The position numbers were made by a program, and so were the translations under genes. 64,000 nt of DNA from Escherichia phage JLBYU08: the sequence record OK272482.1; one strand, written 5' to 3'. Under the pieces are notes generated by a model. The model was not told the origin of the DNA and searched no databases. It saw only the letters and a list, made by a program, of their open reading frames with translations. This document shows, in pieces, positions 7,688 to 61,258 of the stretch (positions are counted from its first letter, which is position 1; every line of letters begins with the position of its first letter).

Positions 7688-8506
7688 TTGAGCAAGAAAG
7701 AGTCCAACGACAAATATTACACAAACCCTGAGTATGCAGAATATCTTGTTGGTAAAGTAAAAGATAAGTATGGAAATTGTGCATACGTTGAGCCTTCTGC
7801 TGGAAGGGGTTCTTTTTCAAAACTATTTTCAGAGATACTGTCTTACGATCTAGTACCAGATCCTGAATTTGAAGGACCAACACCGTGCATTCAGGCAAAC
7901 TTCTTGGAGGTGCATCCCAAGGCAGATGTCTTCATAGGTAACCCACCATTTGGCAAGAATTCATCTTTAGCTTGCAAATTCTTTAACCATTGTGCATCAT
8001 TGCTAGAGCTTGGAGGGGCTATAGCCTTCATCTTGCCACGGACATTTGAAAAAATATTTTTTGCAAACAAACTGGACATGTCGATGCACCTTGTCTACAG
8101 TGAAAGGTGCCCTAAGAACTCGTTTCTACTTAATGGCAAACCTTATGACGTGCCGTGTGTTTTCCAAATTTGGGAGAAAAAGGCGTGCAACAGGGATCCT
8201 GTAGAGATTGGGGAGAATAAGTTATTTTCTTTTAGCACTCCAGATGACTACGACTTCTGTGTAAGACGTGTTGGGTATAATGCTGGAAAAGTATTGGGGG
8301 AGGATGACCCAAAATCTGAAGAATCAACATATTTCATAAAATCTTTAGTTGACGGTGTTGACAGAGTGTTTGCTGAATGCTATTCTTCTTTTCAAGAAGA
8401 AGCAGGTAAGACTGCCGGAATGAAGAGTATAGGTAAGAAAGAACTACAATACATTTTGGAGACTAGGTATGATCAAAAGCATAGACTTGACCAAAGAACT
8501 TACTGA
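7688..8506 (+). CDS. DNA N6-adenine methyltransferase
   Basis: Motif I VEPSAGRGSF then motif IV FIGNPPFG; start set at TTG 7688 after GGAGG (track start 7658 lies inside terminator hairpin). Confidence 0.6.
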   Translation: MSKKESNDKYYTNPEYAEYLVGKVKDKYGNCAYVEPSAGRGSFSKLFSEILSYDLVPDPEFEGPTPCIQANFLEVHPKADVFIGNPPFGKNSSLACKFFNHCASLLELGGAIAFILPRTFEKIFFANKLDMSMHLVYSERCPKNSFLLNGKPYDVPCVFQIWEKKACNRDPVEIGENKLFSFSTPDDYDFCVRRVGYNAGKVLGEDDPKSEESTYFIKSLVDGVDRVFAECYSSFQEEAGKTAGMKSIGKKELQYILETRYDQKHRLDQRTY

Positions 8507-8927
8507 TGCAAAAGCTTTTGGTGAGACAGCGGTACAAAGGGGGCAGGCGATGGGACTGGCACTACCTTTCGTATTAAAAGAGCACTTTACAGATTTTCAA
8601 CTTATCAAGGGTGATAAGGGAATGCTTATCCTGGAGCATAAGTTGAGTAAGAAACGCTATAAAGTTGTTTTTAATTCTAAAGCTCCAACAAAACTGGGAT
8701 TCAGAACTTACAATCTTAACCCATCCTACACTAAGGGTGTTGGAAGGGTAGAACAACAGCATTTCAGTGCCAGAGCTTCTTTAGCCCCTTTGATGCTAAA
8801 TTTCTCAGGGGTGGCTTTAGGATACCTTGATAAGAAAAGAGTTCTTCATGTCCGTTTAACAGACTTTGTAACGCTTCTAGCCAACAACGAGGTTGATGAA
8901 AAGGGACGTGTAAAAACAAACTTCTAA
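8469..8927 (+). CDS. hypothetical protein
   Basis: 152-aa ORF, no recognisable motif. Confidence 0.4.
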   Translation: MIKSIDLTKELTDAKAFGETAVQRGQAMGLALPFVLKEHFTDFQLIKGDKGMLILEHKLSKKRYKVVFNSKAPTKLGFRTYNLNPSYTKGVGRVEQQHFSARASLAPLMLNFSGVALGYLDKKRVLHVRLTDFVTLLANNEVDEKGRVKTNF

Positions 8928-47761: not shown

Positions 47762-48066
47762 GCTGCACCGCAACTTCAAGATAGCGGTTAGATTGTTACC
47801 ATAGAAGGTCAAGGGTAAGTGGAGGAAGTTCTAGTAGAGAGAGGTTAGCATGTGTGGGAAATCTATAATGGTGGCCTGGAATATGGTGCAAACGATAGGA
47901 TGAGTTATTCAGCTTGTCGCGCCTACTCTGAAAAATCCATTTTAGTTTTCGATCCATTTTCTGATTTTCTAAGAATTTTAAAATATCCAGCCCGGTGAAA
48001 TATCAAAAGGAGGAAATCCATTTTAGAAATCCCCCTTATACTTGATATGCCAGAAATTTTCAAGTA

Positions 48067-48396
48067 TCAGTTGTCTTTGTTTTTAGGTTTGTACATGCGC
48101 AGAGGTATGGTCTTTGTAACATTCCATTTCCTCAACCCTTCCCAGCTCCAGTTGTGGGCGTGGTATCCGGTTATGCATGCACTACTGGAGTGATCGTAAG
48201 CATAAGAGAACGCTAAGCGCACCAGGTGGGGCCAGTCCTTCCATGGTTGTGGACCGTAAGCTTTTCTCCAACACCGACACAAACTAAATGTCTCAAGGAT
48301 AGGAAGGATAACAAACCCATACACTGTCACCAAAATAGCCAGTGCAATGATTGTCAGGAATACATACCCTGCAGTTGAAATGATGATCTCTGTCAT
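48067..48396 (-). CDS. membrane protein
   Basis: N-terminal TM. Confidence 0.45.
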   Translation of the reverse strand: MTEIIISTAGYVFLTIIALAILVTVYGFVILPILETFSLCRCWRKAYGPQPWKDWPHLVRLAFSYAYDHSSSACITGYHAHNWSWEGLRKWNVTKTIPLRMYKPKNKDN

Positions 48397-48656
48397 TTGT
48401 CCTCCCCTTTCTTACGAATATAGATGTGAGATCCTGCCTGTATATAAATTTCTCGACCATCTTCTGCAAAGATATGAAATACACGATCACCTTCGTACTC
48501 GATACGAGATATTTTCATAATGGTCTTTCCACCTGGGATACGGATCTCGTCCCCCACAGCGATGTTCCATGCAGATTTAAGCTTAAACATCTGCACCTTC
48601 CTTTGGGAGCTCGAACTCTGGCATAGCCATATACGCCACAACAGGGTTGTAATCAA
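48393..48656 (-). CDS. hypothetical protein
   Basis: 87-aa ORF. Confidence 0.4.
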   Translation of the reverse strand: MITTLLWRIWLCQSSSSQRKVQMFKLKSAWNIAVGDEIRIPGGKTIMKISRIEYEGDRVFHIFAEDGREIYIQAGSHIYIRKKGEDK

Positions 48657-48828
48657 AGTAGAAATGACCGTTAATTATCCCAGTTTTGTGAGCATAGTCA
48701 CCAGATCCTGCAAGAACAACCTCGCAAACTCCGAAATCAACCTTGCCATTCTCATCTGCCATGGCTACAATATACTTTCCTAGAGGCATGTTTTTAACGC
48801 CGTCTACAAATGTCCACCCTTTGTTCAT
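48583..48828 (-). CDS. hypothetical protein
   Basis: 81-aa ORF, overlaps neighbour; start uncertain. Confidence 0.35.
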   Translation of the reverse strand: MNKGWTFVDGVKNMPLGKYIVAMADENGKVDFGVCEVVLAGSGDYAHKTGIINGHFYFDYNPVVAYMAMPEFELPKEGADV

Positions 48829-48849
48829 AACTTTATCTCCTGGACTTTC

Positions 48850-49182
48850 TTAAGGTAACCAGTAAACAATTTCGCCTTTCAGTTCCATGTCGTTACCGAC
48901 ATAGATTTTCCAGCCATCCATTTTAGCCACTGCAGGAGTGAAGTCCGAAGAACCACTAACCTCTTTCCAAGTCCCGTAGTCAGGTTGCCAGATATAGAAT
49001 CCACCTTCCTTGTCCCATGCTCCATATACCACATCGAGCAGGTTGCCCATTGCAACAATAGTAGGCCGTGGGAATAATACACCTACAGATGCACCACAAT
49101 TTCGGGTAGATTTTAAATTACAATCCCAAAAGATGTCTGCCAGTGTGGCGGCAATAGCTTTACGTCTTTCCAATGTTACCAT
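48850..49182 (-). CDS. hypothetical protein
   Basis: 110-aa ORF. Confidence 0.45.
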   Translation of the reverse strand: MVTLERRKAIAATLADIFWDCNLKSTRNCGASVGVLFPRPTIVAMGNLLDVVYGAWDKEGGFYIWQPDYGTWKEVSGSSDFTPAVAKMDGWKIYVGNDMELKGEIVYWLP

Positions 49183-49192
49183 GGCACGATAC

Positions 49193-49384
49193 TCACTTGT
49201 TGTTAAGAAGTTCTAAAACTTTCTGTTTTACTTTGTCAAGGTCTGTGGATTCAAAAACTGTACGATATCCCCAACTTTGCCCATAGGAGTGACTGCAATC
49301 CCCGTAGCACCATTGCTCAATTTGATAGTATTCAAGGAAGGGGTGCTGTCTAACTATGATACCATCCCGGTTAAAAATTACCAT
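49193..49384 (-). CDS. hypothetical protein
   Basis: 63-aa ORF. Confidence 0.4.
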   Translation of the reverse strand: MVIFNRDGIIVRQHPFLEYYQIEQWCYGDCSHSYGQSWGYRTVFESTDLDKVKQKVLELLNNK

Positions 49385-49447
49385 AATACATCACTCTCTG
49401 TTAGTTTATGCATATATTATACACTGCAGTTTTCAGATGTCAATCTT

Positions 49448-49699
49448 TTACAGGTTACTCCAGTATAATCGGCATTTACATTTTGGGCAATGAGGTTCTT
49501 TTATGTAATAACCATCAGTCTTTGGAACACTTTTTGGTGCAGTTTTAAGATTGTACCTGGTAAAACATCGGAAGCAGGTTACCTCTCCCACCTGTTGATC
49601 GTTGATCCACTCACCAGAGTAAAGCTCTTTCTTGTTTCTCATAATTCTCTCCCAAATCCTCTGCAATCTTATACCAAAATCTCCAGCCAGAAAGCACAC
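49448..49699 (-). CDS. zinc-ribbon protein
   Basis: CFRC ... CPKCKC Cys pairs. Confidence 0.4.
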   Translation of the reverse strand: MCFLAGDFGIRLQRIWERIMRNKKELYSGEWINDQQVGEVTCFRCFTRYNLKTAPKSVPKTDGYYIKEPHCPKCKCRLYWSNL

Positions 49700-49893
49700 G
49701 GGAACACCTTGAGGATTGAATCTTTACTTGGCTCGGAAGTTCTTTTTCCGTATGGTAGGTAGAAATACCCCCCTGCAGATTCGAATATAGCTCCTTCGGT
49801 TGTATCTACCACAGCAAGAATTAAGATTTTAGTCTCCACAGTGCTCTCCTCTCTTAGTTGTTGTGGAAACTATATCACCTCAGAAGATGGTCG

Positions 49894-50352
49894 TCAACAC
49901 TTTTTGTACTCTACTACAACCACATCAATATCTGTGGTTGCAAGATTAATTACATCTTCTACATGTTCCCACTTTAGACCGCCAATACCGCATCCAATTT
50001 TAGGAATGTAGAACGGCAATGACACACCTTTGAATACCTCGTTGACTCGCTCAAAACCTTTCATTATTGAGAAGTATTCAGCATTGGGCCCTGGGTAGAA
50101 CTGGGTATACAGGTTGATTCCATATACGACCCTGTTCTTGGCAAAATGCTCCCAACAAGAAAACATACCCAGCTTGTCCAGATTACCATAGGCAGTCTCT
50201 TTGTCGGCTGCCAGTGCTTGAGGGAACTCACGGGCAATATCTTTCGCTATGCCTGCACCCATTGTATGAAAGCAGTTACAACCGTGGATCAGGTGACCAG
50301 CACCGCTCTTAAAAAGGGAGATTAAATCTCCCGCTACAGTATCAATAATCAC
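49894..50352 (-). CDS. macro-domain protein (ADP-ribose binding/hydrolase-like)
   Basis: IHGCNCFHTMGAGIAKDI and IPKIGCGIGGL blocks fit macro-domain glycine-rich motifs. Confidence 0.55.
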   Translation of the reverse strand: MIIDTVAGDLISLFKSGAGHLIHGCNCFHTMGAGIAKDIAREFPQALAADKETAYGNLDKLGMFSCWEHFAKNRVVYGINLYTQFYPGPNAEYFSIMKGFERVNEVFKGVSLPFYIPKIGCGIGGLKWEHVEDVINLATTDIDVVVVEYKKC

Positions 50353-50767
50353 GGTATGTTAGCTCCTCTTCCGCAATTTCAAAAAACTCATCCCAACCTT
50401 GTGGCATATTTGAGTTGCCGAAGTGGCTTTCATAGTAAAGGTTCTCACCACTTGGGAGATAGAAATCTGTTACCTCGTAGAATCCACAATCGTCGCACTC
50501 GCCTTCTTCAAACTTGGCCTCAACCTTAATACCTAGGAAGGTGAAAAGTTTATGGATATCTTCAGTTTCGAACTCCCAGAAGATATTGTTTTCCGCATCG
50601 GTGTAGAACTGGATCAGCAGACCATTATCCAGTTTACCAAAATATTCTGTGAAGTAACTACCTTCCCAGAAATCTTTATGACAAATAATATCCATGCGCT
50701 TGCCCATGATAAAGGTGTGGGCGTTTTGGGCATCGTCACGAATCAGTTTTGGCATTTCATAGATCAT
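50342..50767 (-). CDS. hypothetical acidic protein
   Basis: 141-aa ORF. Confidence 0.45.
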   Translation of the reverse strand: MIYEMPKLIRDDAQNAHTFIMGKRMDIICHKDFWEGSYFTEYFGKLDNGLLIQFYTDAENNIFWEFETEDIHKLFTFLGIKVEAKFEEGECDDCGFYEVTDFYLPSGENLYYESHFGNSNMPQGWDEFFEIAEEELTYRDY

Positions 50768-50835
50768 CTTAGTTCTCCGGGTTCAACAGGTGGGGGTGCT
50801 ACAGGAAGATCATAAAACATAGCTATCACAGTCTC

Positions 50836-51033
50836 TTACACAGGAATTGCTTCAAACAGGCCGTTATCTATACCGTCCTTCAGATAGAGATTATATTCTA
50901 TGTCGGTATCTGTATAAAGGGCAGCATCCAGCATTCTATCTGTGAGTCCATCCATTGGGTGGAGAAACCACCACCCACGCCAGTCAAAGTAACAGCCTGG
51001 TGCATCTTCTCTTACACGGATTCGATAAATCAT
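50836..51033 (-). CDS. hypothetical protein
   Basis: 65-aa ORF. Confidence 0.4.
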   Translation of the reverse strand: MIYRIRVREDAPGCYFDWRGWWFLHPMDGLTDRMLDAALYTDTDIEYNLYLKDGIDNGLFEAIPV

Positions 51034-51129
51034 GGGCAGTGGCCTCCTGTTAGTTATACATCCCAGTTTTCTTCGTTCATCACGTCCTCCCGTTCTATGA
51101 AGTTATAATTGCACACCTTTCCACCTGTG

Positions 51130-51546
51130 TCAACAGAAAACTTCAACAAACTCTTCCACAGTTTTAATGTCGTGGGAAAAAGGTTTACGGCTATAACGGG
51201 CAATAGCACTATCAACCACCGCCCGGTACTCCAAATCTTCAGAATATTTCATGAAGCATTGCAGCGTCTCTGGGCAGATAGCTAAATAGCTCCACCACCC
51301 TTCTTCAGATTGGTAGTCGAATCCCATACTTTCCAACCATGAAGCATATACTCCTGCACCCTCAAGCCAGTGAGTATTTTCATCCAGAAACTTGTTAATA
51401 GACATGTGAGCTTCTAAGCATTTATCCAGCTCTTTTCCGTTAACCAGCCACGCACTGACCGTGGCGCATCCAAGGTCTACAGATTGAGTTGACAGGTTGT
51501 ATTGGTCATAGTTCTCAGGTTTAACAATGATATCTTCTAATGTCAT
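51130..51546 (-). CDS. hypothetical protein
   Basis: 138-aa ORF. Confidence 0.45.
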   Translation of the reverse strand: MTLEDIIVKPENYDQYNLSTQSVDLGCATVSAWLVNGKELDKCLEAHMSINKFLDENTHWLEGAGVYASWLESMGFDYQSEEGWWSYLAICPETLQCFMKYSEDLEYRAVVDSAIARYSRKPFSHDIKTVEEFVEVFC

Positions 51547-51608
51547 TTTTTAGATCTCCTTATACAAAAATGCCCCACCCTTTCGGGCAGGGCTATGTTA
51601 ACTAAATG

Positions 51609-52835
51609 TTAAAATGGGATGTCATCATCAAAGACGTACTGTGCTGGATTCTGATCCATTGGGTCATCTTCCGCATCATTTACAGGAGGAGCGTCTACAG
51701 TGTTTTGCTGTGGAGCTGCTTCCTGTTTGGCAGCCTGAGGTTCTTGATGGTCAGTGGACTCAGCACCGTTCTTGATCCAATCGTACAACGGCTCAGCTAG
51801 ATTAGTCAAGACATCTTTTGCTTCTGCAGTAATTGCCACTGCAAAATCATCAACTTTCGTTTTCTTGTCAATACGGCGACAAGCGTTCAACACCGCATTA
51901 CCGACACTGGCACCTACTTCATCTTCAGTTCGGTTGGTGGCTTGAGCATACTCTTTCTTAAGCTCAATGGTGACTACGTGCAGTGTTTTAGCCACGCCCA
52001 GTGGGTCGTCTACCTTAAACCCGCGATCCAGGATGATCTGCAACGCATTGATGCTATGCCCCGTTTCCACACCGATAGGGTCGTAAGAGGATTTACGCTT
52101 GCCACCAGAGCCTTGAGTGCCGTTCTCTGCCTTAGGGGGATAGGCCTTGAAACCACTGATAATGTTTCCGGTGTCTTTGTCAACAATGGCTGCAACACGA
52201 CCACCTACCACCAGGTCTTTAAGCTGCTCATCAGTTACAACCATAGCACCTTCGCCAATCTTGTGGTCATTAACAGTAACCACGTTGCCAACAATCTGAG
52301 TCACATCACCATAGATGCGTAAAACGTCCTGATTGGCATTCTGCTGAGGTTTCTGCTTCTGGCCTTGTGATTGTGCACCTTGTTGCTGTTTTTGCTGCTG
52401 AGTCGCTGCTGGAGCCTCTCCTGCACCCAGCTTAACCATCTTAGCCAGTGAGCCCTTGTAATAGGTCTTACCGTTATGCTCGTTTGCCTTCAAAGGGATA
52501 TTTACGATCCATCCTGGCGTTACGGTTTCCCACTTGTCATCAATCTTAACAGAGACAGAGTCTTGATGACCTGGTTTAAGCAGCTTATCACCCATGCTGA
52601 TCCAGACTTCTTCACCACCTTGAAGCAGGTTATCAGAGGAATCCAGTTCAGAAATCAGTAAAGAGATGGTGTGGCTGGATTCAATTTTCTTACCTTGCCA
52701 CACAGTGGTTTTAATACCTGTTGTAGGATCAGCACCTTTGATAGGCTTAATGCTAACACGTTTAATCATGCCGTGAGCCAGTAAAACAGTTTCACGCGGA
52801 TTCATTGGGTTAGCGAATTGTTGAATAACGCTCAT
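51609..52835 (-). CDS. ssDNA-binding protein-like, with bacterial SSB C-terminal tip DDDIPF
   Basis: Gln/Gly-rich linker, acidic tail ending ...FDDDIPF identical to the E. coli SSB tip; sits beside Pol A and primase-helicase. Confidence 0.5.
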   Translation of the reverse strand: MSVIQQFANPMNPRETVLLAHGMIKRVSIKPIKGADPTTGIKTTVWQGKKIESSHTISLLISELDSSDNLLQGGEEVWISMGDKLLKPGHQDSVSVKIDDKWETVTPGWIVNIPLKANEHNGKTYYKGSLAKMVKLGAGEAPAATQQQKQQQGAQSQGQKQKPQQNANQDVLRIYGDVTQIVGNVVTVNDHKIGEGAMVVTDEQLKDLVVGGRVAAIVDKDTGNIISGFKAYPPKAENGTQGSGGKRKSSYDPIGVETGHSINALQIILDRGFKVDDPLGVAKTLHVVTIELKKEYAQATNRTEDEVGASVGNAVLNACRRIDKKTKVDDFAVAITAEAKDVLTNLAEPLYDWIKNGAESTDHQEPQAAKQEAAPQQNTVDAPPVNDAEDDPMDQNPAQYVFDDDIPF

Positions 52836-53200
52836 TATTTATCTCCTTGTTCTTCGTTAGTGTTTGCCGTGTGTGCAAACCCTGCTTGAATTAATTTGTC
52901 CTGAACTTGAGCCAACAGGCCCATTGCAAAACTTGTGGTCCCAGAGAGGGCCATTAGCATATCTCGTTGTTGAGCTACCCAACCTAAGGCATAGTCCAAA
53001 CGACGATATTTTTCTTCTTCGCGCAGAGCCTGAAATAATTGTTCAGCCTCCGGTTGTTGTGTGAGCTCCTGAAGTCTTCCCATGAAAGAAGAAAGCACTA
53101 GCAAAAGAGACACTTGATCTTTACTTAACCCTAAGAAAAATTCTTGAGGTTGTTCTTGCTCGTTCATCGCAACCGACTCTTGATCGTTCATTTGTTCCAT
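52835..53200 (-). CDS. hypothetical acidic protein
   Basis: 121-aa ORF. Confidence 0.45.
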   Translation of the reverse strand: MEQMNDQESVAMNEQEQPQEFFLGLSKDQVSLLLVLSSFMGRLQELTQQPEAEQLFQALREEEKYRRLDYALGWVAQQRDMLMALSGTTSFAMGLLAQVQDKLIQAGFAHTANTNEEQGDK

Positions 53201-56368: not shown

Positions 56369-56697
56369 CATCTGTTCAGGTAGGTCGTTAAGCTACCCCG
56401 CACCATTACGTGCATAGCCATACAGTTTCCTGTATGGATCGGACTACCTCACTGCCTTGGTAACAAGGCACCTCCCATTTCGACCGCACTTGCTGGCCTA
56501 CTCTACTCGCTTCTTCACACCAACCTATGTTGGAGCTATGCTTTCGATAGTCTCTGAACGTTCATCCTCTCGGATGCTTCGCTGCGGATTAGCATATTGA
56601 GCTTTTACCATACTCAGGTGTAAAAGTCAACTTAGCTTTCCCGTCAATTAAAGAGGTTATTCGACATAGATCACTCTATGAAGCCACAATGTTATTT
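56369..56697 (-). other. group I self-splicing intron (no internal ORF)
   Basis: Minus-strand core elements P AATTGACGGGAAAGC, Q AATCCGCAGC, R GTTCAGAGACTA, S GTAGTCCGATCC; exon 1 ends in U, intron ends in G; boundaries inferred. Confidence 0.7.
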
Positions 56698-59121
56698 ATG
56701 GTAATAGATAATACGACGGACACCTTCATCGTACCACCCACGCTTCACCATTTGGTGGTGCATGAGTATCCCAACTAAGTCACACAACGATGCACCACCA
56801 TTTTGTTGGTATGCATTAAGTAAAGAGTGTTTAGATCGGGTCCAGATGGCATGACCATCAAAAGAGTATATAAACTTCTTACCAGTTGCTTCCCAGAATT
56901 TCTCCAGATCCTCTTTACGCCCCTTAAGACCAGGGTTGGCATCCCAAAGCGCATCGATTACCCTTTGCCCCAACTCTGGAGAGATATCCAGCATGTCTGC
57001 AACTTTATCTTTTTGTGCCCCGTACATAACCCCATACGTGATAGGTTTACCGTCGTTACGGGACACCTCTCTGCCTGCTACTTTTGTATATGCCTCAGCA
57101 TTGTTTTGGTGTGCGTCCCCGTTACTTACAACATCATAATACAAGCCGTTGTCGAACTCAAAGGCACCCCAAGCCCCGATAAGCTGCTCTAAGTTGGACC
57201 CGTCAATACCGATCTCAAAGTATCCTGGAGGAACACCCCACAGACTACGCATCTCTTTACCCATAACCACTTTAGGAGATGGTTTAGGCATGTTTGCACA
57301 AATACTGTGTTTCTGTCGGGAAGTGTTTGTTAGCCCAGAACTTTTAGCAGGAAGCTTATGGTCAATCTTCAAACGTGGGTGATTAAGAAGACCAGTATCA
57401 ACCTTATCCTCCTTGATTGGATCAAGGACCGATCTGCGGTTTCGCAATGATAACCACAAGACGATATCTTTAGCCATCTCTCCGTTCAATTTTTCAAGAT
57501 TTGGGCATAGGTGTCCAAACGTATCTTTCAGCTGCGGAGAAGTAATAAGTGCTCTGGCTTTTCTACGTATTTTCCCGAATACTTCCTTTTTAATCCTTTC
57601 GGAGTTAGGAAAGCTTCGGAACTTGTGCACGGTTGTCTGAAACTTAGCATCAGTTTTGTTCCAGAAGTTGATAATCAGGTCACAATACTCTGACTCTAAA
57701 AGCTCGTCCATGTATGCATATACTCGTGCATCAACATCTGCATCAGGTAGAGCTTTCTTCTTGCTGTCTTTAGTTACATCCTTAGTTCTCCACATTGTCG
57801 GAAGCCAACCAGCACTGATCAGGTATCGCTTAATGTCGTCCTGATTGCTGATTTTCATAGGTATCTTGCAGTCCGGCATTCGCTTCTGCTGTAGATCACT
57901 TATTGCCTGATCCATCAGCTCTTTAGGTAAAGGTTGTGGTGTGGAAGTGCCCTTAATATAGCCTCTCAAGAAATCAGCCATCTTATCAGGGTCTTTGCAG
58001 CCCATCTCTTCACACCATTTTATCCCCATCTTGCTGACATCTCCTGTGGAGGTAAATGCTCGCTTAGGCGGGGCTTTGAACTCCAAAGCACTCATGTCCA
58101 CAGGATAGCCAAGCTTATCTTTTAACCATTTCCAACCATTGTTGGAGATTGTCCCATCTTGGTTAAACGGCTTTTCAGGGAACTTGGGCCGCTGAGACAT
58201 TGACAGCTCTTTTAAAGGAAGTTGAGGTTCAACACGATCAGCGATTTCTTTCATCCACGCATCGCAACGGTCACGTAAAGCAATAGCTCCATCTATGTCG
58301 AAGTATACACCCTGACGGGCCTGCAGCTCCATCAGGAAGTGCTGCAGCATGCCTCGACGTAGTGCGTTCTTCCAGGTGATCTTCTTGAACCCTTTCGGCT
58401 TCTCTTTGGCTGGATCGTACATAAAGTTCTGCATGTCAGATTTGCCGTAGAATACACCTTTTGATTCCGCTACCAGCTCTTTCCAGAGCAGCTCCTGGAT
58501 GATAACGTCCTCGAATACACGATCCACATACTTCCACAACGGAAGATCGCGCCAGTCATCAATTTGAACTTTCTGGTTACCAAGGGCGTAGCCCCATGCC
58601 ATAAGGCCGTGAGGACCAACAGGCTGCATTTTCTTAGTAACCGGGTTGAATACAGAGTCCGGACAACCTTTTGGTAAAGGGCGATCAGGCCACAAGATTC
58701 GGCTCATCGCCAACGTATCAAACAGGTTAACCTGGTGGTCGTTGATAGTCCCCATACATTTAGGATCACGGAACATATCAAAATGAATACCGGATAATCT
58801 CTCCATCAGCATAAAGTCATAACTGTAGCAGTTATGGCAGTTCAAAGCTGTTGGTGACCAGTCGGAATTGCCTGTAAGCCAACCCTCCAACTCTGAAAAA
58901 TCTGCTATGCGAACTTCAAAATCTTTATAAAAAGTTTTCTTTGCCAGAATAAAGTTCTTAGCCTTCTCTATATCCTCTTCGGAGTAGTGTGTGCGGTCAT
59001 TTAGAGGAAGGAACAGCATAAAACGGTTCTTATTCAGCTCTTTAAACAGGCCGCAGTGATAATAAAGATCTGGGTCTTCCAGCAAACCGGATGACTCAAA
59101 ATCGAACGACCACATGCTCAT
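56698..59121 (-). CDS. DNA polymerase family A, exon 1 (3'-5' exo and polymerase domains to the His of motif C)
   Basis: Exo I DFESSG at N-terminus, motif B KPITYGVMYGAQ; uninterrupted frame would stop 2 codons after the inferred splice site. Confidence 0.8.
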
Positions 59122-59179: not shown

Positions 59180-61258
59180 TTAAAAAGGTGTTTCATCATC
59201 CTCAAAACCAGGGACCGGATCAGAGGATGGATCATCGTATTGGAGGTCTTCCTGCGTGTCAATAGGCTTGACAGTGGGTGTTACAACCTTATCAGCCACA
59301 ACCTTGCCCATAGGTGTTTCTACAACTGCATGCTCCTGATCCTCAAACATAGCCTGAGGTCTCCAAACAACCTCCCCACCTTCTCCGTCTGTGAACATCT
59401 GCATTTCTTTGTCCCAGTACCAATTACTGGCATCATAGAACTTACCTGTATGCGGATCCATAACTAAAGTGTCAGCAATACCTAAAGTTTTTGCTGGACG
59501 GTTTTTAAGACCTACCAGACGGACACGTCCACGAGAACGATCCACCATTTCTTCGGCCTCGACACCTATGACTACCCAACTCAACTGTTCAAGCCCAGCC
59601 GATCCTCGCAAATTCTCTTTTCGCACAGGATACCAGAAAGGTAATGGGTTACCATCCTTGTCCTTAGGGGGCACAATCTCTGTACGTTTGAGGTGAGCGA
59701 TCACCAAGATAAACACGTTAAACTGCTTACAAAACGCAGCCAGTTGGGTCATAGCCATGTCCAGTTCTTTTCGCTCATCCTTAACATTAAGCCCTGAAAT
59801 TACCATGGACAGGTGATCCAGCACAATATAACGACAATGGTACAGGCAAACCATTTGCTTAAGCTTGGTAATCAACTCGTCCACTGGAATAGACCCGAAA
59901 TGTTTGAACACTTTGATTTTTCCAGCTTTTGCCCATGATTGGTGAATCTCTGCGTGTTCTTGATCAGTTAAAAACTGGCTAGGATCTTCAACAAACTCTT
60001 TAACATCAAACCCTAACTGGTTTGCATACAAGGAGTTAATTGCTTCCTCTGGGTCCTCCTCAAGATGAATCATGCATAGACGATCATCCTCTTCATAGTC
60101 ATCGGCCTTCGGGCATGTCGGGTCCATTAGGTATCTTGCAATACAGTGTTCCAGTTTTTTAGCCACGGTTGTTTTACCGCCGCCTGATGGACCTGTAAGC
60201 ATTACAAGTGTCCCTTTGTGCAAGCCTTTTAGCATTTTTTGCAGTTTTGGGAACTCTGCACTGATATCTACCCCGTTGGAAGTCTTTTTCCGCAAAGACT
60301 CGATAGAGAAGTCTTCTAAATCCGACACAGCATCAGGCACATATTTAACAGGGTGCCGGAACATGTTGACAATATCTTCCAGCTTTTTAGCCTTCAGCAT
60401 GTCTCGGATATCTTTTACACCGTCAGGGTCATTTACTTCACCAGGGTATTCTACGTGGTAAACGTTATCAGCCATCAAAAATGCTGCGATATTGTGCGTG
60501 GCCTCAACACCTTTAATGACGTGTTTTTGCTTCTCTACCTCGTTAGCTGCATCGTTATCCATTGCCAGCACAACTGTTCCATAGCTACGGATAAACTTCT
60601 CATTGTTTGCAAAAGTATCTACTGCGTTTGCACATCCACAGTTAATTCCAACAAAAGGCAGGCAGGGTTTTCCTGCCAGATCACCACCGTTGATAACTGC
60701 GTCGATCCCGTCCTGGACCTCTTTAGCCCACTGCTTCACCTTTGCCGGGGCTTTAGCGTTGGTGAGAATCCCTTTTACTTGTATCTGATATGCAGCCTGC
60801 CATGCTGCAATAACATCACCTTCTCCCTCACAAACGTTAATCTGCTTACGGTTGTTGGAAGATGCACACAGCTTTTGACCAAACATCTGGGAGTTGGCCT
60901 TTACGATACCAACAACGGAGAAATGGCCCCTTTGCTCTTTAGGAATAGTCCAGTCACGCTTTTTGAAACCAGACAGATTTCCGTAGCGGTCGTAATATGG
61001 GAAATATGTTGCAGTGACTGTCACACCGTCTTCTTGGGACAATGCTGATCGCACACCAAAATATTGTGCAGCCATCAGACCGATATTTTGTTGTGGGACA
61101 GGGACAATTTTAGTATTTTCTAAAACAGTCTCTACAGTTTCAACTTCTTTTTCATCACGATAGTCTCGTTTCACACTTCCCCCACTTTTATACTTAGTTT
61201 CTTTCGGGTTTGGCTCACCGAAACGGTTGTATGCAGATGCCATAAATTTACTTCCCAT
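59180..61258 (-). CDS. DNA primase-helicase (T7 gp4-like)
   Basis: TOPRIM CEGEGD and MDNDAANE, Walker A LTGPSGGGKTT, Walker B IVLDHLSM. Confidence 0.85.
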   Translation of the reverse strand: MGSKFMASAYNRFGEPNPKETKYKSGGSVKRDYRDEKEVETVETVLENTKIVPVPQQNIGLMAAQYFGVRSALSQEDGVTVTATYFPYYDRYGNLSGFKKRDWTIPKEQRGHFSVVGIVKANSQMFGQKLCASSNNRKQINVCEGEGDVIAAWQAAYQIQVKGILTNAKAPAKVKQWAKEVQDGIDAVINGGDLAGKPCLPFVGINCGCANAVDTFANNEKFIRSYGTVVLAMDNDAANEVEKQKHVIKGVEATHNIAAFLMADNVYHVEYPGEVNDPDGVKDIRDMLKAKKLEDIVNMFRHPVKYVPDAVSDLEDFSIESLRKKTSNGVDISAEFPKLQKMLKGLHKGTLVMLTGPSGGGKTTVAKKLEHCIARYLMDPTCPKADDYEEDDRLCMIHLEEDPEEAINSLYANQLGFDVKEFVEDPSQFLTDQEHAEIHQSWAKAGKIKVFKHFGSIPVDELITKLKQMVCLYHCRYIVLDHLSMVISGLNVKDERKELDMAMTQLAAFCKQFNVFILVIAHLKRTEIVPPKDKDGNPLPFWYPVRKENLRGSAGLEQLSWVVIGVEAEEMVDRSRGRVRLVGLKNRPAKTLGIADTLVMDPHTGKFYDASNWYWDKEMQMFTDGEGGEVVWRPQAMFEDQEHAVVETPMGKVVADKVVTPTVKPIDTQEDLQYDDPSSDPVPGFEDDETPF

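What the first reader, a model, noticed from the sequence alone, without database searches (positions are those of the whole stretch)
49894..50352. Macro-domain protein in the replication arm
The glycine-rich blocks HGCNCFHTMGAGIAKDI and IGCGIGGL fit macro-domain ADP-ribose-binding motifs. Phage macro domains can reverse ADP-ribosylation of DNA or protein or degrade ADP-ribose-derived signals, so this is a candidate counter-defence enzyme.
Basis: partly seen in the sequence, partly recalled or inferred. Interest (0 to 1): 0.6.

Follow-up and report, generated by a model that had tools for sequence, protein, structure and literature searches.

The report
Phage macrodomain, likely anti-DarTG2 enzyme
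This gene of an rV5-like E. coli phage encodes a small ADP-ribose-removing (macrodomain) enzyme of the same family as phage T4 Tk.4/AdfM, which protects T4 from a bacterial defence that tags viral DNA with ADP-ribose; it is a real but already recognised kind of counter-defence gene.

Summary

The window is a Vequintavirus (rV5-like E. coli phage), and public records already call this gene "macro domain protein" or "phosphatase". The protein is 39% identical over its full length to T4 Tk.4 and 69% to RB49 Tk.4. A T4 tk.4 knockout becomes sensitive to DarTG2, and the gene was named AdfM (bioRxiv 2025). The most likely function is therefore removal of DarT2-made ADP-ribose from thymidine in phage ssDNA. 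That is inferred from homology and has not been tested for this phage.

It is not a DarG. It lacks the DarT-binding domain, has no darT neighbour, and has Gln84 where DarG and TARG1 have the catalytic Lys. Gln holds this position in 254 of 258 relatives, as in Streptomyces SCO6735, which also cleaves thymidine-linked ADP-ribose.

One extra finding: within Vequintavirus the gene exists as two alleles about 20% apart in nucleotides (dS about 1.0, against about 0.08 in flanking genes), both under purifying selection.

Verdict: a new member of a known kind, of modest interest.

The parts
49894..50352 (-). Coding sequence of the 152-aa stand-alone macrodomain protein (Tk.4/AdfM-type), GTG start, TGA stop
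50236..50286 (-). Residues 23-39, HGCNCFHTMGAGIAKDI: loop 1 of the ADP-ribose pocket. Contains H23 and N26 (equivalent to N22 of T. aquaticus DarG and N27/H24 of SCO6735) and the G32-A33-G34 glycine loop.
   Evidence: Translation. Alignment to Mtb DarG, Poa1p and SCO6735. In the family, H23 is present in 253/258, N26 in 257/258 and C27 in 257/258.
50101..50115 (-). Residues 80-84, NLYTQ: Q84 occupies the position of the catalytic lysine of DarG (K80), TARG1 (K84) and PhiKZ AdfM (K78)
   Evidence: Alignments. Q is present in 254/258 family members and none has K. The SCO6735 equivalent Q85 is essential (PMC9411070).
49975..49998 (-). Residues 119-126, IGCGIGGL: glycine-rich loop 2 (phosphate-binding loop of macrodomains). 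G124 sits where TARG1 has D125.
   Evidence: Translation. Alignment to TARG1. G120 and G122 are invariant.
50203..50205 (-). Codon of D50, invariant in the Tk.4-type family and not conserved in DarG/TARG1. Role unknown.
   Evidence: D in 256/258 family members. Coordinates verified.
50363..50368 (-). Ribosome-binding site GAGGAG, 10 nt upstream of the GTG start
   Evidence: Sequence read directly.
50342..50767 (-). Upstream neighbour: a 141-aa, very acidic protein of unknown function whose stop overlaps the macrodomain start by 11 nt, so translational coupling is likely. Listed as context, not shown to be a functional partner.
   Evidence: ORF. No Pfam hit, so not a DarT. PHROG 8157, function unknown. 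31 D/E against 10 K/R. Homologues occur in Krischvirus but not next to tk.4.

Best explanation
The gene encodes a stand-alone ('orphan antitoxin-like') macrodomain ADP-ribosyl hydrolase of the T4 Tk.4/AdfM family. When the phage infects an E. coli carrying a DarTG2 toxin-antitoxin defence, freed DarT2 attaches ADP-ribose to thymidines in single-stranded phage DNA and blocks replication. This enzyme binds the ADP-ribose in its macrodomain pocket (loop 1 H23/N26/G32-G34, loop 2 G120-G125) and hydrolyses the thymidine-ribose bond, restoring replicable DNA. Catalysis probably uses Gln84, together with H23 and N26, to position the distal ribose and a water molecule, as proposed for SCO6735. It probably does not use the lysine of DarG and TARG1. 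Shown here: the ORF, the macro fold, membership of the ALC1-like class, full-length homology to T4 and RB49 Tk.4, the Gln-type active site, and purifying selection. Inferred: the substrate (T-ADPr on ssDNA), the catalytic roles of the residues, and the anti-DarTG2 phenotype in this phage.
Against: No experiment exists for a Vequintavirus protein: the literature search found no test of DarTG2 against Vequintavirinae or their macrodomain. The T4 evidence is genetic only and comes from a preprint; hydrolysis by a Tk.4-type protein has not been shown biochemically. At 39% identity, a shift in substrate cannot be excluded. The catalytic Lys of DarG is absent (Q84). SCO6735 also acts on protein substrates, so DNA need not be the only target. 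The fold is as close to Poa1p, a small-molecule phosphatase, as it is to DarG. Bacterial homologues are not next to darT.
Confidence: 0.65

Rival explanations
1. It reverses ADP-ribosylation of protein or RNA rather than DNA. The targets could be modifications made by another ADP-ribosylating defence toxin (for example mRNA-modifying CmdT-type enzymes) or by phage or host ADP-ribosyltransferases, removed with TARG1-like activity.
For: The family profile's best solved-structure sequence match is TARG1 (E=1.1e-14), as is the best Foldseek match. SCO6735, which shares the Gln-type site, also de-modifies auto-ADP-ribosylated PARP1.
Against: TARG1's Lys84/Asp125 dyad is absent here (Q84 and G124). 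The only phenotype known for a family member (T4 Tk.4) is specific to DarTG2, which modifies DNA. No ADP-ribosyltransferase is annotated in the roughly 39 kb around the gene in phage Murica.
Confidence: 0.15
2. It is a small-molecule enzyme, as the legacy 'phosphatase' annotation says: an ADP-ribose-1''-phosphate phosphatase (Poa1p-like) or an O-acetyl-ADP-ribose deacetylase. In that case it would process NAD-derived metabolites during infection.
Against: The 'phosphatase' name is a transferred annotation ('contains A1pp phosphatase motif'), not a measurement. No source of ADP-ribose-1''-phosphate is known in phage infection (own knowledge). This reading does not explain the DarTG2-specific phenotype of T4 delta-tk.4.
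Confidence: 0.12
3. It binds or degrades ADP-ribose-derived immune signals (gcADPR or His-ADPR of Thoeris), acting as a sponge or hydrolase.
Confidence: 0.04

Closest known systems
T4 Tk.4 = AdfM (anti-DarT factor macrodomain; HIDEN-SEQ preprint, bioRxiv 10.1101/2025.11.20.689424) and its Krischvirus orthologue RB49 Tk.4
   Same: Both are stand-alone macrodomains of about 150 aa with collinear full-length homology: 39% identity to T4 (E=1e-43) and 69% to RB49. They share the same motifs (HGCNCFHTMG.G, NLYTQF.PGPN, P.IG.GIG) and the same PHROG 335 family. Both are dispensable accessory genes set among small early or middle genes.
   Different: The phage family differs (Vequintavirus against Straboviridae), and so do the neighbours: there is no tk or vs here. 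The window protein is closer to RB49 Tk.4 (69%) than RB49 Tk.4 is to T4 Tk.4 (44%), which points to gene exchange between unrelated E. coli phages. The anti-DarTG2 phenotype is shown only for T4.
PhiKZ gp104 = AdfM of chimalliviruses (Cell Rep 2026, PMC13309987)
   Same: It is a phage-encoded orphan macrodomain of the DarG-like class (hhalign probability 96.8%), and the loop-1 asparagine (N23 there, N26 here) is conserved. It is biochemically shown to remove thymidine-linked ADP-ribose and to counter DarTG2.
   Different: Identity is only 22-23%. PhiKZ AdfM keeps the catalytic lysine (K78), where this protein has Q84. PhiKZ AdfM is imported into the phage nucleus, which Vequintaviruses are not known to form (own knowledge).
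DarG2 antitoxin macrodomain (M. tuberculosis 5M3I, T. aquaticus 5M31/5M3E, Thermosipho 7OMU)
   Different: It scores 47 bits against a cut-off of 250 for the DarG equivalog. There is no C-terminal DarT-binding domain (152 aa against about 340), no adjacent darT, and Q84 stands in place of the catalytic K80.
Streptomyces coelicolor SCO6735 (5E3B; PMC9411070)
   Same: It is an orphan ALC1-like macrodomain with Gln (Q85) at the catalytic-lysine position plus His and Asn in loop 1 (H24/N27 there, H23/N26 here; alignment). It hydrolyses DarT-made thymidine-ADPr and protects cells from DarT.
   Different: Sequence similarity is low (22% identity in the Foldseek alignment, E=4.6e-7). SCO6735 has a substrate loop 5 residues longer than in DarG/TARG1, with Lys89 and Lys94 that those enzymes lack; whether the phage protein lacks that loop was not checked. 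It is a cellular, DNA-damage-regulated gene rather than a phage gene. The Q84-to-Q85 equivalence rests on transitive alignment through TARG1 and DarG, not on a direct superposition.
Human TARG1/OARD1 and yeast Poa1p
   Different: TARG1's K84/D125 dyad is replaced by Q84/G124. Their substrates are protein Glu-ADPr and ADP-ribose-1''-phosphate, in a eukaryotic context.

Membership tests
Macro domain (Pfam PF01661) | Profile match above the curated gathering score | tested here: met
   25.9 bits against a cut-off of 22, E=1e-5. Most homologues also carry PF01661.
Macro domain (Pfam PF01661) | Three-layer alpha/beta/alpha macro fold | tested here: met
Macro domain (Pfam PF01661) | ADP-ribose binding | not testable with these tools
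   Only the conserved glycine loops (G32-G34, G120-G125) and N26 are seen. No ligand docking or assay was possible.
ALC1-like macrodomain class (TARG1/DarG/Poa1p/SCO6735) | Closest structural and sequence relatives belong to this class rather than to the MacroD, PARG or macroH2A classes | tested here: met
DarG antitoxin (NCBIfam NF048014, DarTG2) | Full-length equivalog score (at least 250 bits), including the C-terminal DarT-binding domain | tested here: not met
   47.3 bits. Only profile positions 4-144 of 338 are matched, and the protein is just 152 aa.
DarG antitoxin (NCBIfam NF048014, DarTG2) | Catalytic lysine (K80 in T. aquaticus DarG) | tested here: not met
   Q84 aligns with that lysine in Mtb DarG, TARG1 and PhiKZ AdfM.
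DarG antitoxin (NCBIfam NF048014, DarTG2) | Encoded next to a darT toxin gene | tested here: not met
   The nine neighbouring ORFs submitted to Pfam gave no DarT/DUF4433 hit, but the immediate downstream ORF (49669-49839) was not among them. None is annotated in related phages.
AdfM, T4 Tk.4 type (phage orphan macrodomain countering DarTG2) | Full-length homology to T4 Tk.4 with the family motifs | tested here: met
   39% identity, E=1e-43, residues 1-150. 69% identity to RB49 Tk.4. HGCNC, NLYTQ and IG.GIG motifs are shared. Same PHROG 335.
AdfM, T4 Tk.4 type (phage orphan macrodomain countering DarTG2) | Phage-encoded and stand-alone | tested here: met
   The window is a Vequintavirus (98% identical to phage RudolfGeigy). 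The protein is a single domain of 152 aa.
AdfM, T4 Tk.4 type (phage orphan macrodomain countering DarTG2) | Needed for phage growth on DarTG2-expressing hosts | not testable with these tools
   Known only for T4. No report was found for Vequintavirinae.
AdfM, PhiKZ gp104 type | Active-site pair N23/K78 | tested here: not met
   The Asn is conserved (N26), but the Lys is replaced by Q84. Identity is 22%.
SCO6735-type Gln macrodomain hydrolase | His and Asn in loop 1, and Gln at the catalytic-lysine position (H24, N27, Q85) | tested here: met
   H23 and N26 align directly with SCO6735 H24 and N27. Q84 aligns to the Lys position that the paper equates with Q85. The direct phmmer alignment is shifted in that loop, so the Gln equivalence is transitive.
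Poa1p-like ADP-ribose-1''-phosphate phosphatase | Phosphatase activity on ADP-ribose-1''-phosphate | not testable with these tools

The most novel reading that the evidence does not exclude
Two linked proposals. First, the Tk.4-type phage macrodomains form a mechanistically distinct, lysine-less (Gln84/His23/Asp50) branch of DNA ADP-ribosyl hydrolases. Second, the two deeply diverged alleles kept in otherwise near-identical Vequintavirus genomes reflect selection by different host ADP-ribosyltransferases: each allele would be tuned to a different DarT2 variant or to a different substrate (DNA against RNA or protein). That would make this locus a specificity-switching counter-defence cassette.
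Probability: 0.15. Interest if true: 0.55.

Novelty: new member of a known kind. Interest (0 to 1): 0.3.

Why it matters
If the inference holds, rV5-like phages, which are widely used therapeutic and biocontrol candidates against E. coli, carry a built-in enzyme that cancels DarTG2 immunity. That would help predict their host range. The family is very common: it appears in 2830 of 50,697 phage records and forms 1233 clusters at E<=1e-30. Almost every member has glutamine instead of the catalytic lysine studied in DarG and TARG1. Most phage 'anti-DarT' macrodomains may therefore work by the less understood SCO6735-type mechanism. The two-allele pattern at this one gene is a cheap, testable hint of ongoing selection by host defences.

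Tried and rejected
1. DarG membership was rejected. The protein scores below the cut-off, has no C-terminal domain, no lysine and no darT neighbour.

2. I looked for a functional partner in the overlapping upstream gene (50342-50767). It has no Pfam hit, and its Krischvirus homologues are not adjacent to tk.4, so there is no evidence of a two-gene system.

3. I tried guilt by association in cellular genomes. The Pelagimonas homologue is a chromosomal orphan among housekeeping genes with no darT. A second homologue is on a phage-like contig. Neither is informative about the substrate.

4. I asked whether the local divergence against HdK5 reflects positive selection. It does not: dN/dS is 0.10 and dS is about 1.0, so these are old or imported alleles rather than rapid amino-acid change.

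5. I searched the literature and the HIDEN-SEQ supplements for data on the Bas54 (Vequintavirinae) macrodomain. None was found; only T4 tk.4 is covered.

It was repeated without it.

7. One paper search failed because a term was too short.

8. The Thoeris-signal idea found no support beyond a weak structural match to ThsA.

9. I could not access the model coordinates, so no residue-level superposition on the ADP-ribose complexes (5M3E, 4J5S) was made.

Full report
**1. The observation**

The minus-strand ORF at 49894-50352 (GTG start, 152 aa) exists as described. Both quoted motifs are there: HGCNCFHTMGAGIAKDI is residues 23-39 (50236-50286) and IGCGIGGL is residues 119-126 (49975-49998). A GAGGAG ribosome-binding site lies 10 nt upstream of the GTG. 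The start overlaps the stop of the upstream gene (50342-50767) by 11 nt. Related phage records annotate the same start.

**2. Origin of the window**

The 5 kb around the gene is 96-98% identical to many Vequintavirus (rV5-like) E. coli phages. The best match is RudolfGeigy at 98.1%. In those records the gene is called 'macro domain protein', 'phosphatase' or 'hypothetical protein'.

The gene lies in a long minus-strand run of small genes of unknown function. It is about 6.3 kb downstream of the DNA polymerase (56692-59121) and the primase/helicase (59180-61258). 'Replication arm' is therefore a fair description.

**3. Is it a macrodomain?**

Yes, by sequence and by predicted structure.

- Pfam Macro scores 25.9 bits against a cut-off of 22.
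- PHROG 335 matches at E=1.4e-59.
- NCBIfam and PADLOC DarG models match the whole protein at E about 1e-12 to 1e-13.
- The best PDB sequence matches are Mtb DarG (5M3I), Poa1p, SCO6735, BT1257 and TARG1. With a 57-sequence family profile these improve to E=1e-14 to 1e-11.
- An AlphaFold2 model built on that alignment is very confident (pLDDT 96.1, pTM 0.91).

The protein belongs to the ALC1-like class (TARG1/DarG/Poa1p/SCO6735).

**4. Closest characterised relative**

tblastn finds homologues in 2830 of 50,697 phage records. Among T4-like phages the hits fall on tk.4, next to vs.

- Against T4 Tk.4: 39% identity over residues 1-150, E=1e-43.
- Against RB49 (Krischvirus) Tk.4: 69% identity. 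The RB49 gene sits in the same tk-vs position as T4 tk.4.
- RB49 Tk.4 is only 44% identical to T4 Tk.4. The Vequintavirus gene and the Krischvirus gene are therefore close relatives, probably exchanged between unrelated E. coli phages.

In the HIDEN-SEQ preprint, tk.4 was the single significant T4 gene depleted on a DarTG2-expressing host. A clean knockout sensitised T4 to DarTG2, and the gene was named adfM. It is non-essential on K-12.

A second, more distant phage macrodomain was independently named AdfM: PhiKZ gp104. It removes thymidine-linked ADP-ribose in vitro and counters DarTG2. The window protein is only 22-23% identical to it.

No report tests DarTG2 against Vequintavirinae or their macrodomain.

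**5. Active site**

Three independent alignments place Gln84 at the catalytic-lysine position. These are Mtb DarG K80, TARG1 K84 and PhiKZ AdfM K78. TARG1's Asp125 corresponds to Gly124.

This is not a defect of this one gene. T4 Tk.4, which is functional in vivo, has the same NLYTQF motif. Across 258 family members the counts are:

| Residue | Members carrying it |
|---|---|
| H23 | 253 |
| N26 | 257 |
| C27 | 257 |
| D50 | 256 |
| N80 | 256 |
| Y82 | 255 |
| Q84 | 254 (none has Lys) |

The precedent is Streptomyces SCO6735. It has Gln85 at this position plus His24 and Asn27. Its Q85A and Q85E mutants are dead, yet the enzyme efficiently cleaves DarT-made thymidine-ADP-ribose and also de-modifies a protein substrate. 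H23 and N26 align directly with SCO6735 H24 and N27. The Gln equivalence is transitive, because the direct phmmer alignment is shifted in that loop.

**6. What it is not**

It is not a DarG antitoxin. It scores 47 bits against the 250-bit equivalog cut-off, has no C-terminal DarT-binding domain, no catalytic lysine and no darT neighbour. It works like the enzymatic half of DarG without being a member of that family.

**7. Most likely mechanism (confidence about 0.65)**

It is an orphan, antitoxin-like ADP-ribosyl hydrolase. It removes DarT2-installed ADP-ribose from thymidine in phage ssDNA, which allows replication to proceed in DarTG2-carrying E. coli.

- Shown here: the fold, the class, the homology to Tk.4, the Gln-type site, and purifying selection (dN/dS 0.10).
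- Inferred: the substrate and the phenotype.

The rivals are as follows.

- Protein or RNA de-ADP-ribosylation (0.15). TARG1 is the best profile match, and SCO6735 has dual activity.
- A Poa1p-like small-molecule phosphatase or deacetylase (0.12). The legacy annotation is motif-based. It does not explain the T4 phenotype.

**8. Extra finding: two alleles**

Against phage HdK5, eleven neighbouring genes are 98-100% identical in protein. The macrodomain is 85.5% identical and the overlapping upstream gene 94%.

Of the 198 nucleotide differences in 5.2 kb, 90 fall in 49900-50299, and the divergence tapers off through 50300-50800. dS is 1.03 in the macrodomain gene against about 0.08 in flanking genes, with dN/dS 0.10.

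Database-wide, 51 records are at least 90% identical to the window's allele. The remaining Vequintavirus records listed sit at 77-80%. A control gene 800 nt away is 90-100% identical in 114 of its 115 matching records.

This is an old allelic dimorphism or a replacement by recombination, not fast amino-acid evolution. The 22 amino-acid differences cluster in the 54-75 hairpin and include A33K in the glycine loop. Whether the alleles differ in specificity is unknown.

**9. Family size and contexts**

A profile search of 1.84 billion representatives gives 1233 clusters at E<=1e-30 and 8398 at E<=1e-10. Most are stand-alone proteins of about 150 aa (median 157).

A bacterial member in Pelagimonas is a chromosomal orphan without darT. 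Another member lies among helicase and DnaB genes on a phage-like contig. The best viral structure matches are Tk.4-type phage proteins, plus a Marseillevirus protein annotated 'SNF2 subfamily protein' (302 aa) that is 40% identical over the aligned stretch.

**10. Verdict**

It falls into a kind already described (AdfM/Tk.4, 2025-2026) and is already annotated as a macrodomain in public records. I rate it a new member of a known kind, with interest about 0.3. The lysine-less active site shared by nearly the whole family and the two-allele pattern are the only parts that go beyond the literature I could read.

Noticed in passing
window 51609-52835 (-): A 408-aa protein of unknown function (PHROG 4477, no Pfam or PDB sequence match) ends in ...QYVFDDDIPF and has a Gln/Pro-rich central linker. 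DDDIPF is the tip of the E. coli SSB C-terminal tail (own knowledge). It may be the phage's SSB, or a mimic that recruits or competes for SSB-interacting host proteins.
   Followed up: partly
window 49900-50770, compared with L001 (HdK5) 7895-8770: A sharp island of divergence coincides with the macrodomain gene: about 20% nucleotide divergence and dS about 1.0, inside a backbone that is 1-2% divergent. Two allele groups occur across public Vequintavirus genomes. A control gene 800 nt away has a single group.
   Followed up: yes
window 50342-50767 (-): The upstream gene overlaps the macrodomain start by 11 nt and encodes a very acidic 141-aa protein (31 D/E against 10 K/R) of unknown function. 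Its only homologues outside Vequintavirus are in Krischvirus (about 36% identity), at a locus about 10 kb from tk.4. It could be a DNA mimic or another anti-defence protein.
   Followed up: partly
public records matched by window 48000-53000: Sixteen records named 'Campylobacter phage' (host C. jejuni, for example MG065659 and MG065655) are 96-97% identical to this E. coli Vequintavirus region. The host labels look doubtful.
   Followed up: no
BFVD hit A0A481YV05: The best match in the viral structure library is a 302-aa Marseillevirus protein annotated 'SNF2 subfamily protein'. It is 40% identical to the phage protein over the aligned stretch, with TM-score 0.93 normalised to the query. The name recalls the ALC1 (macro + SNF2) architecture; its domain layout was not examined.
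   Followed up: no
window 49448-49642 (-): A small protein two genes downstream of the macrodomain carries a phage zinc-binding domain (PF23903, E=1.6e-22). The listed ORF extends to a GTG at 49699, but homologues and the PHROG match start at the ATG at 49642.
   Followed up: no
hit H58 (Acinetobacter phage vB_AbaM_14/CRR8): In this phage the homologous macrodomain ('putative phosphatase') sits next to a nicotinamide phosphoribosyltransferase gene. This hints that some family members may be linked to NAD salvage rather than, or in addition to, DNA de-ADP-ribosylation.
   Followed up: no
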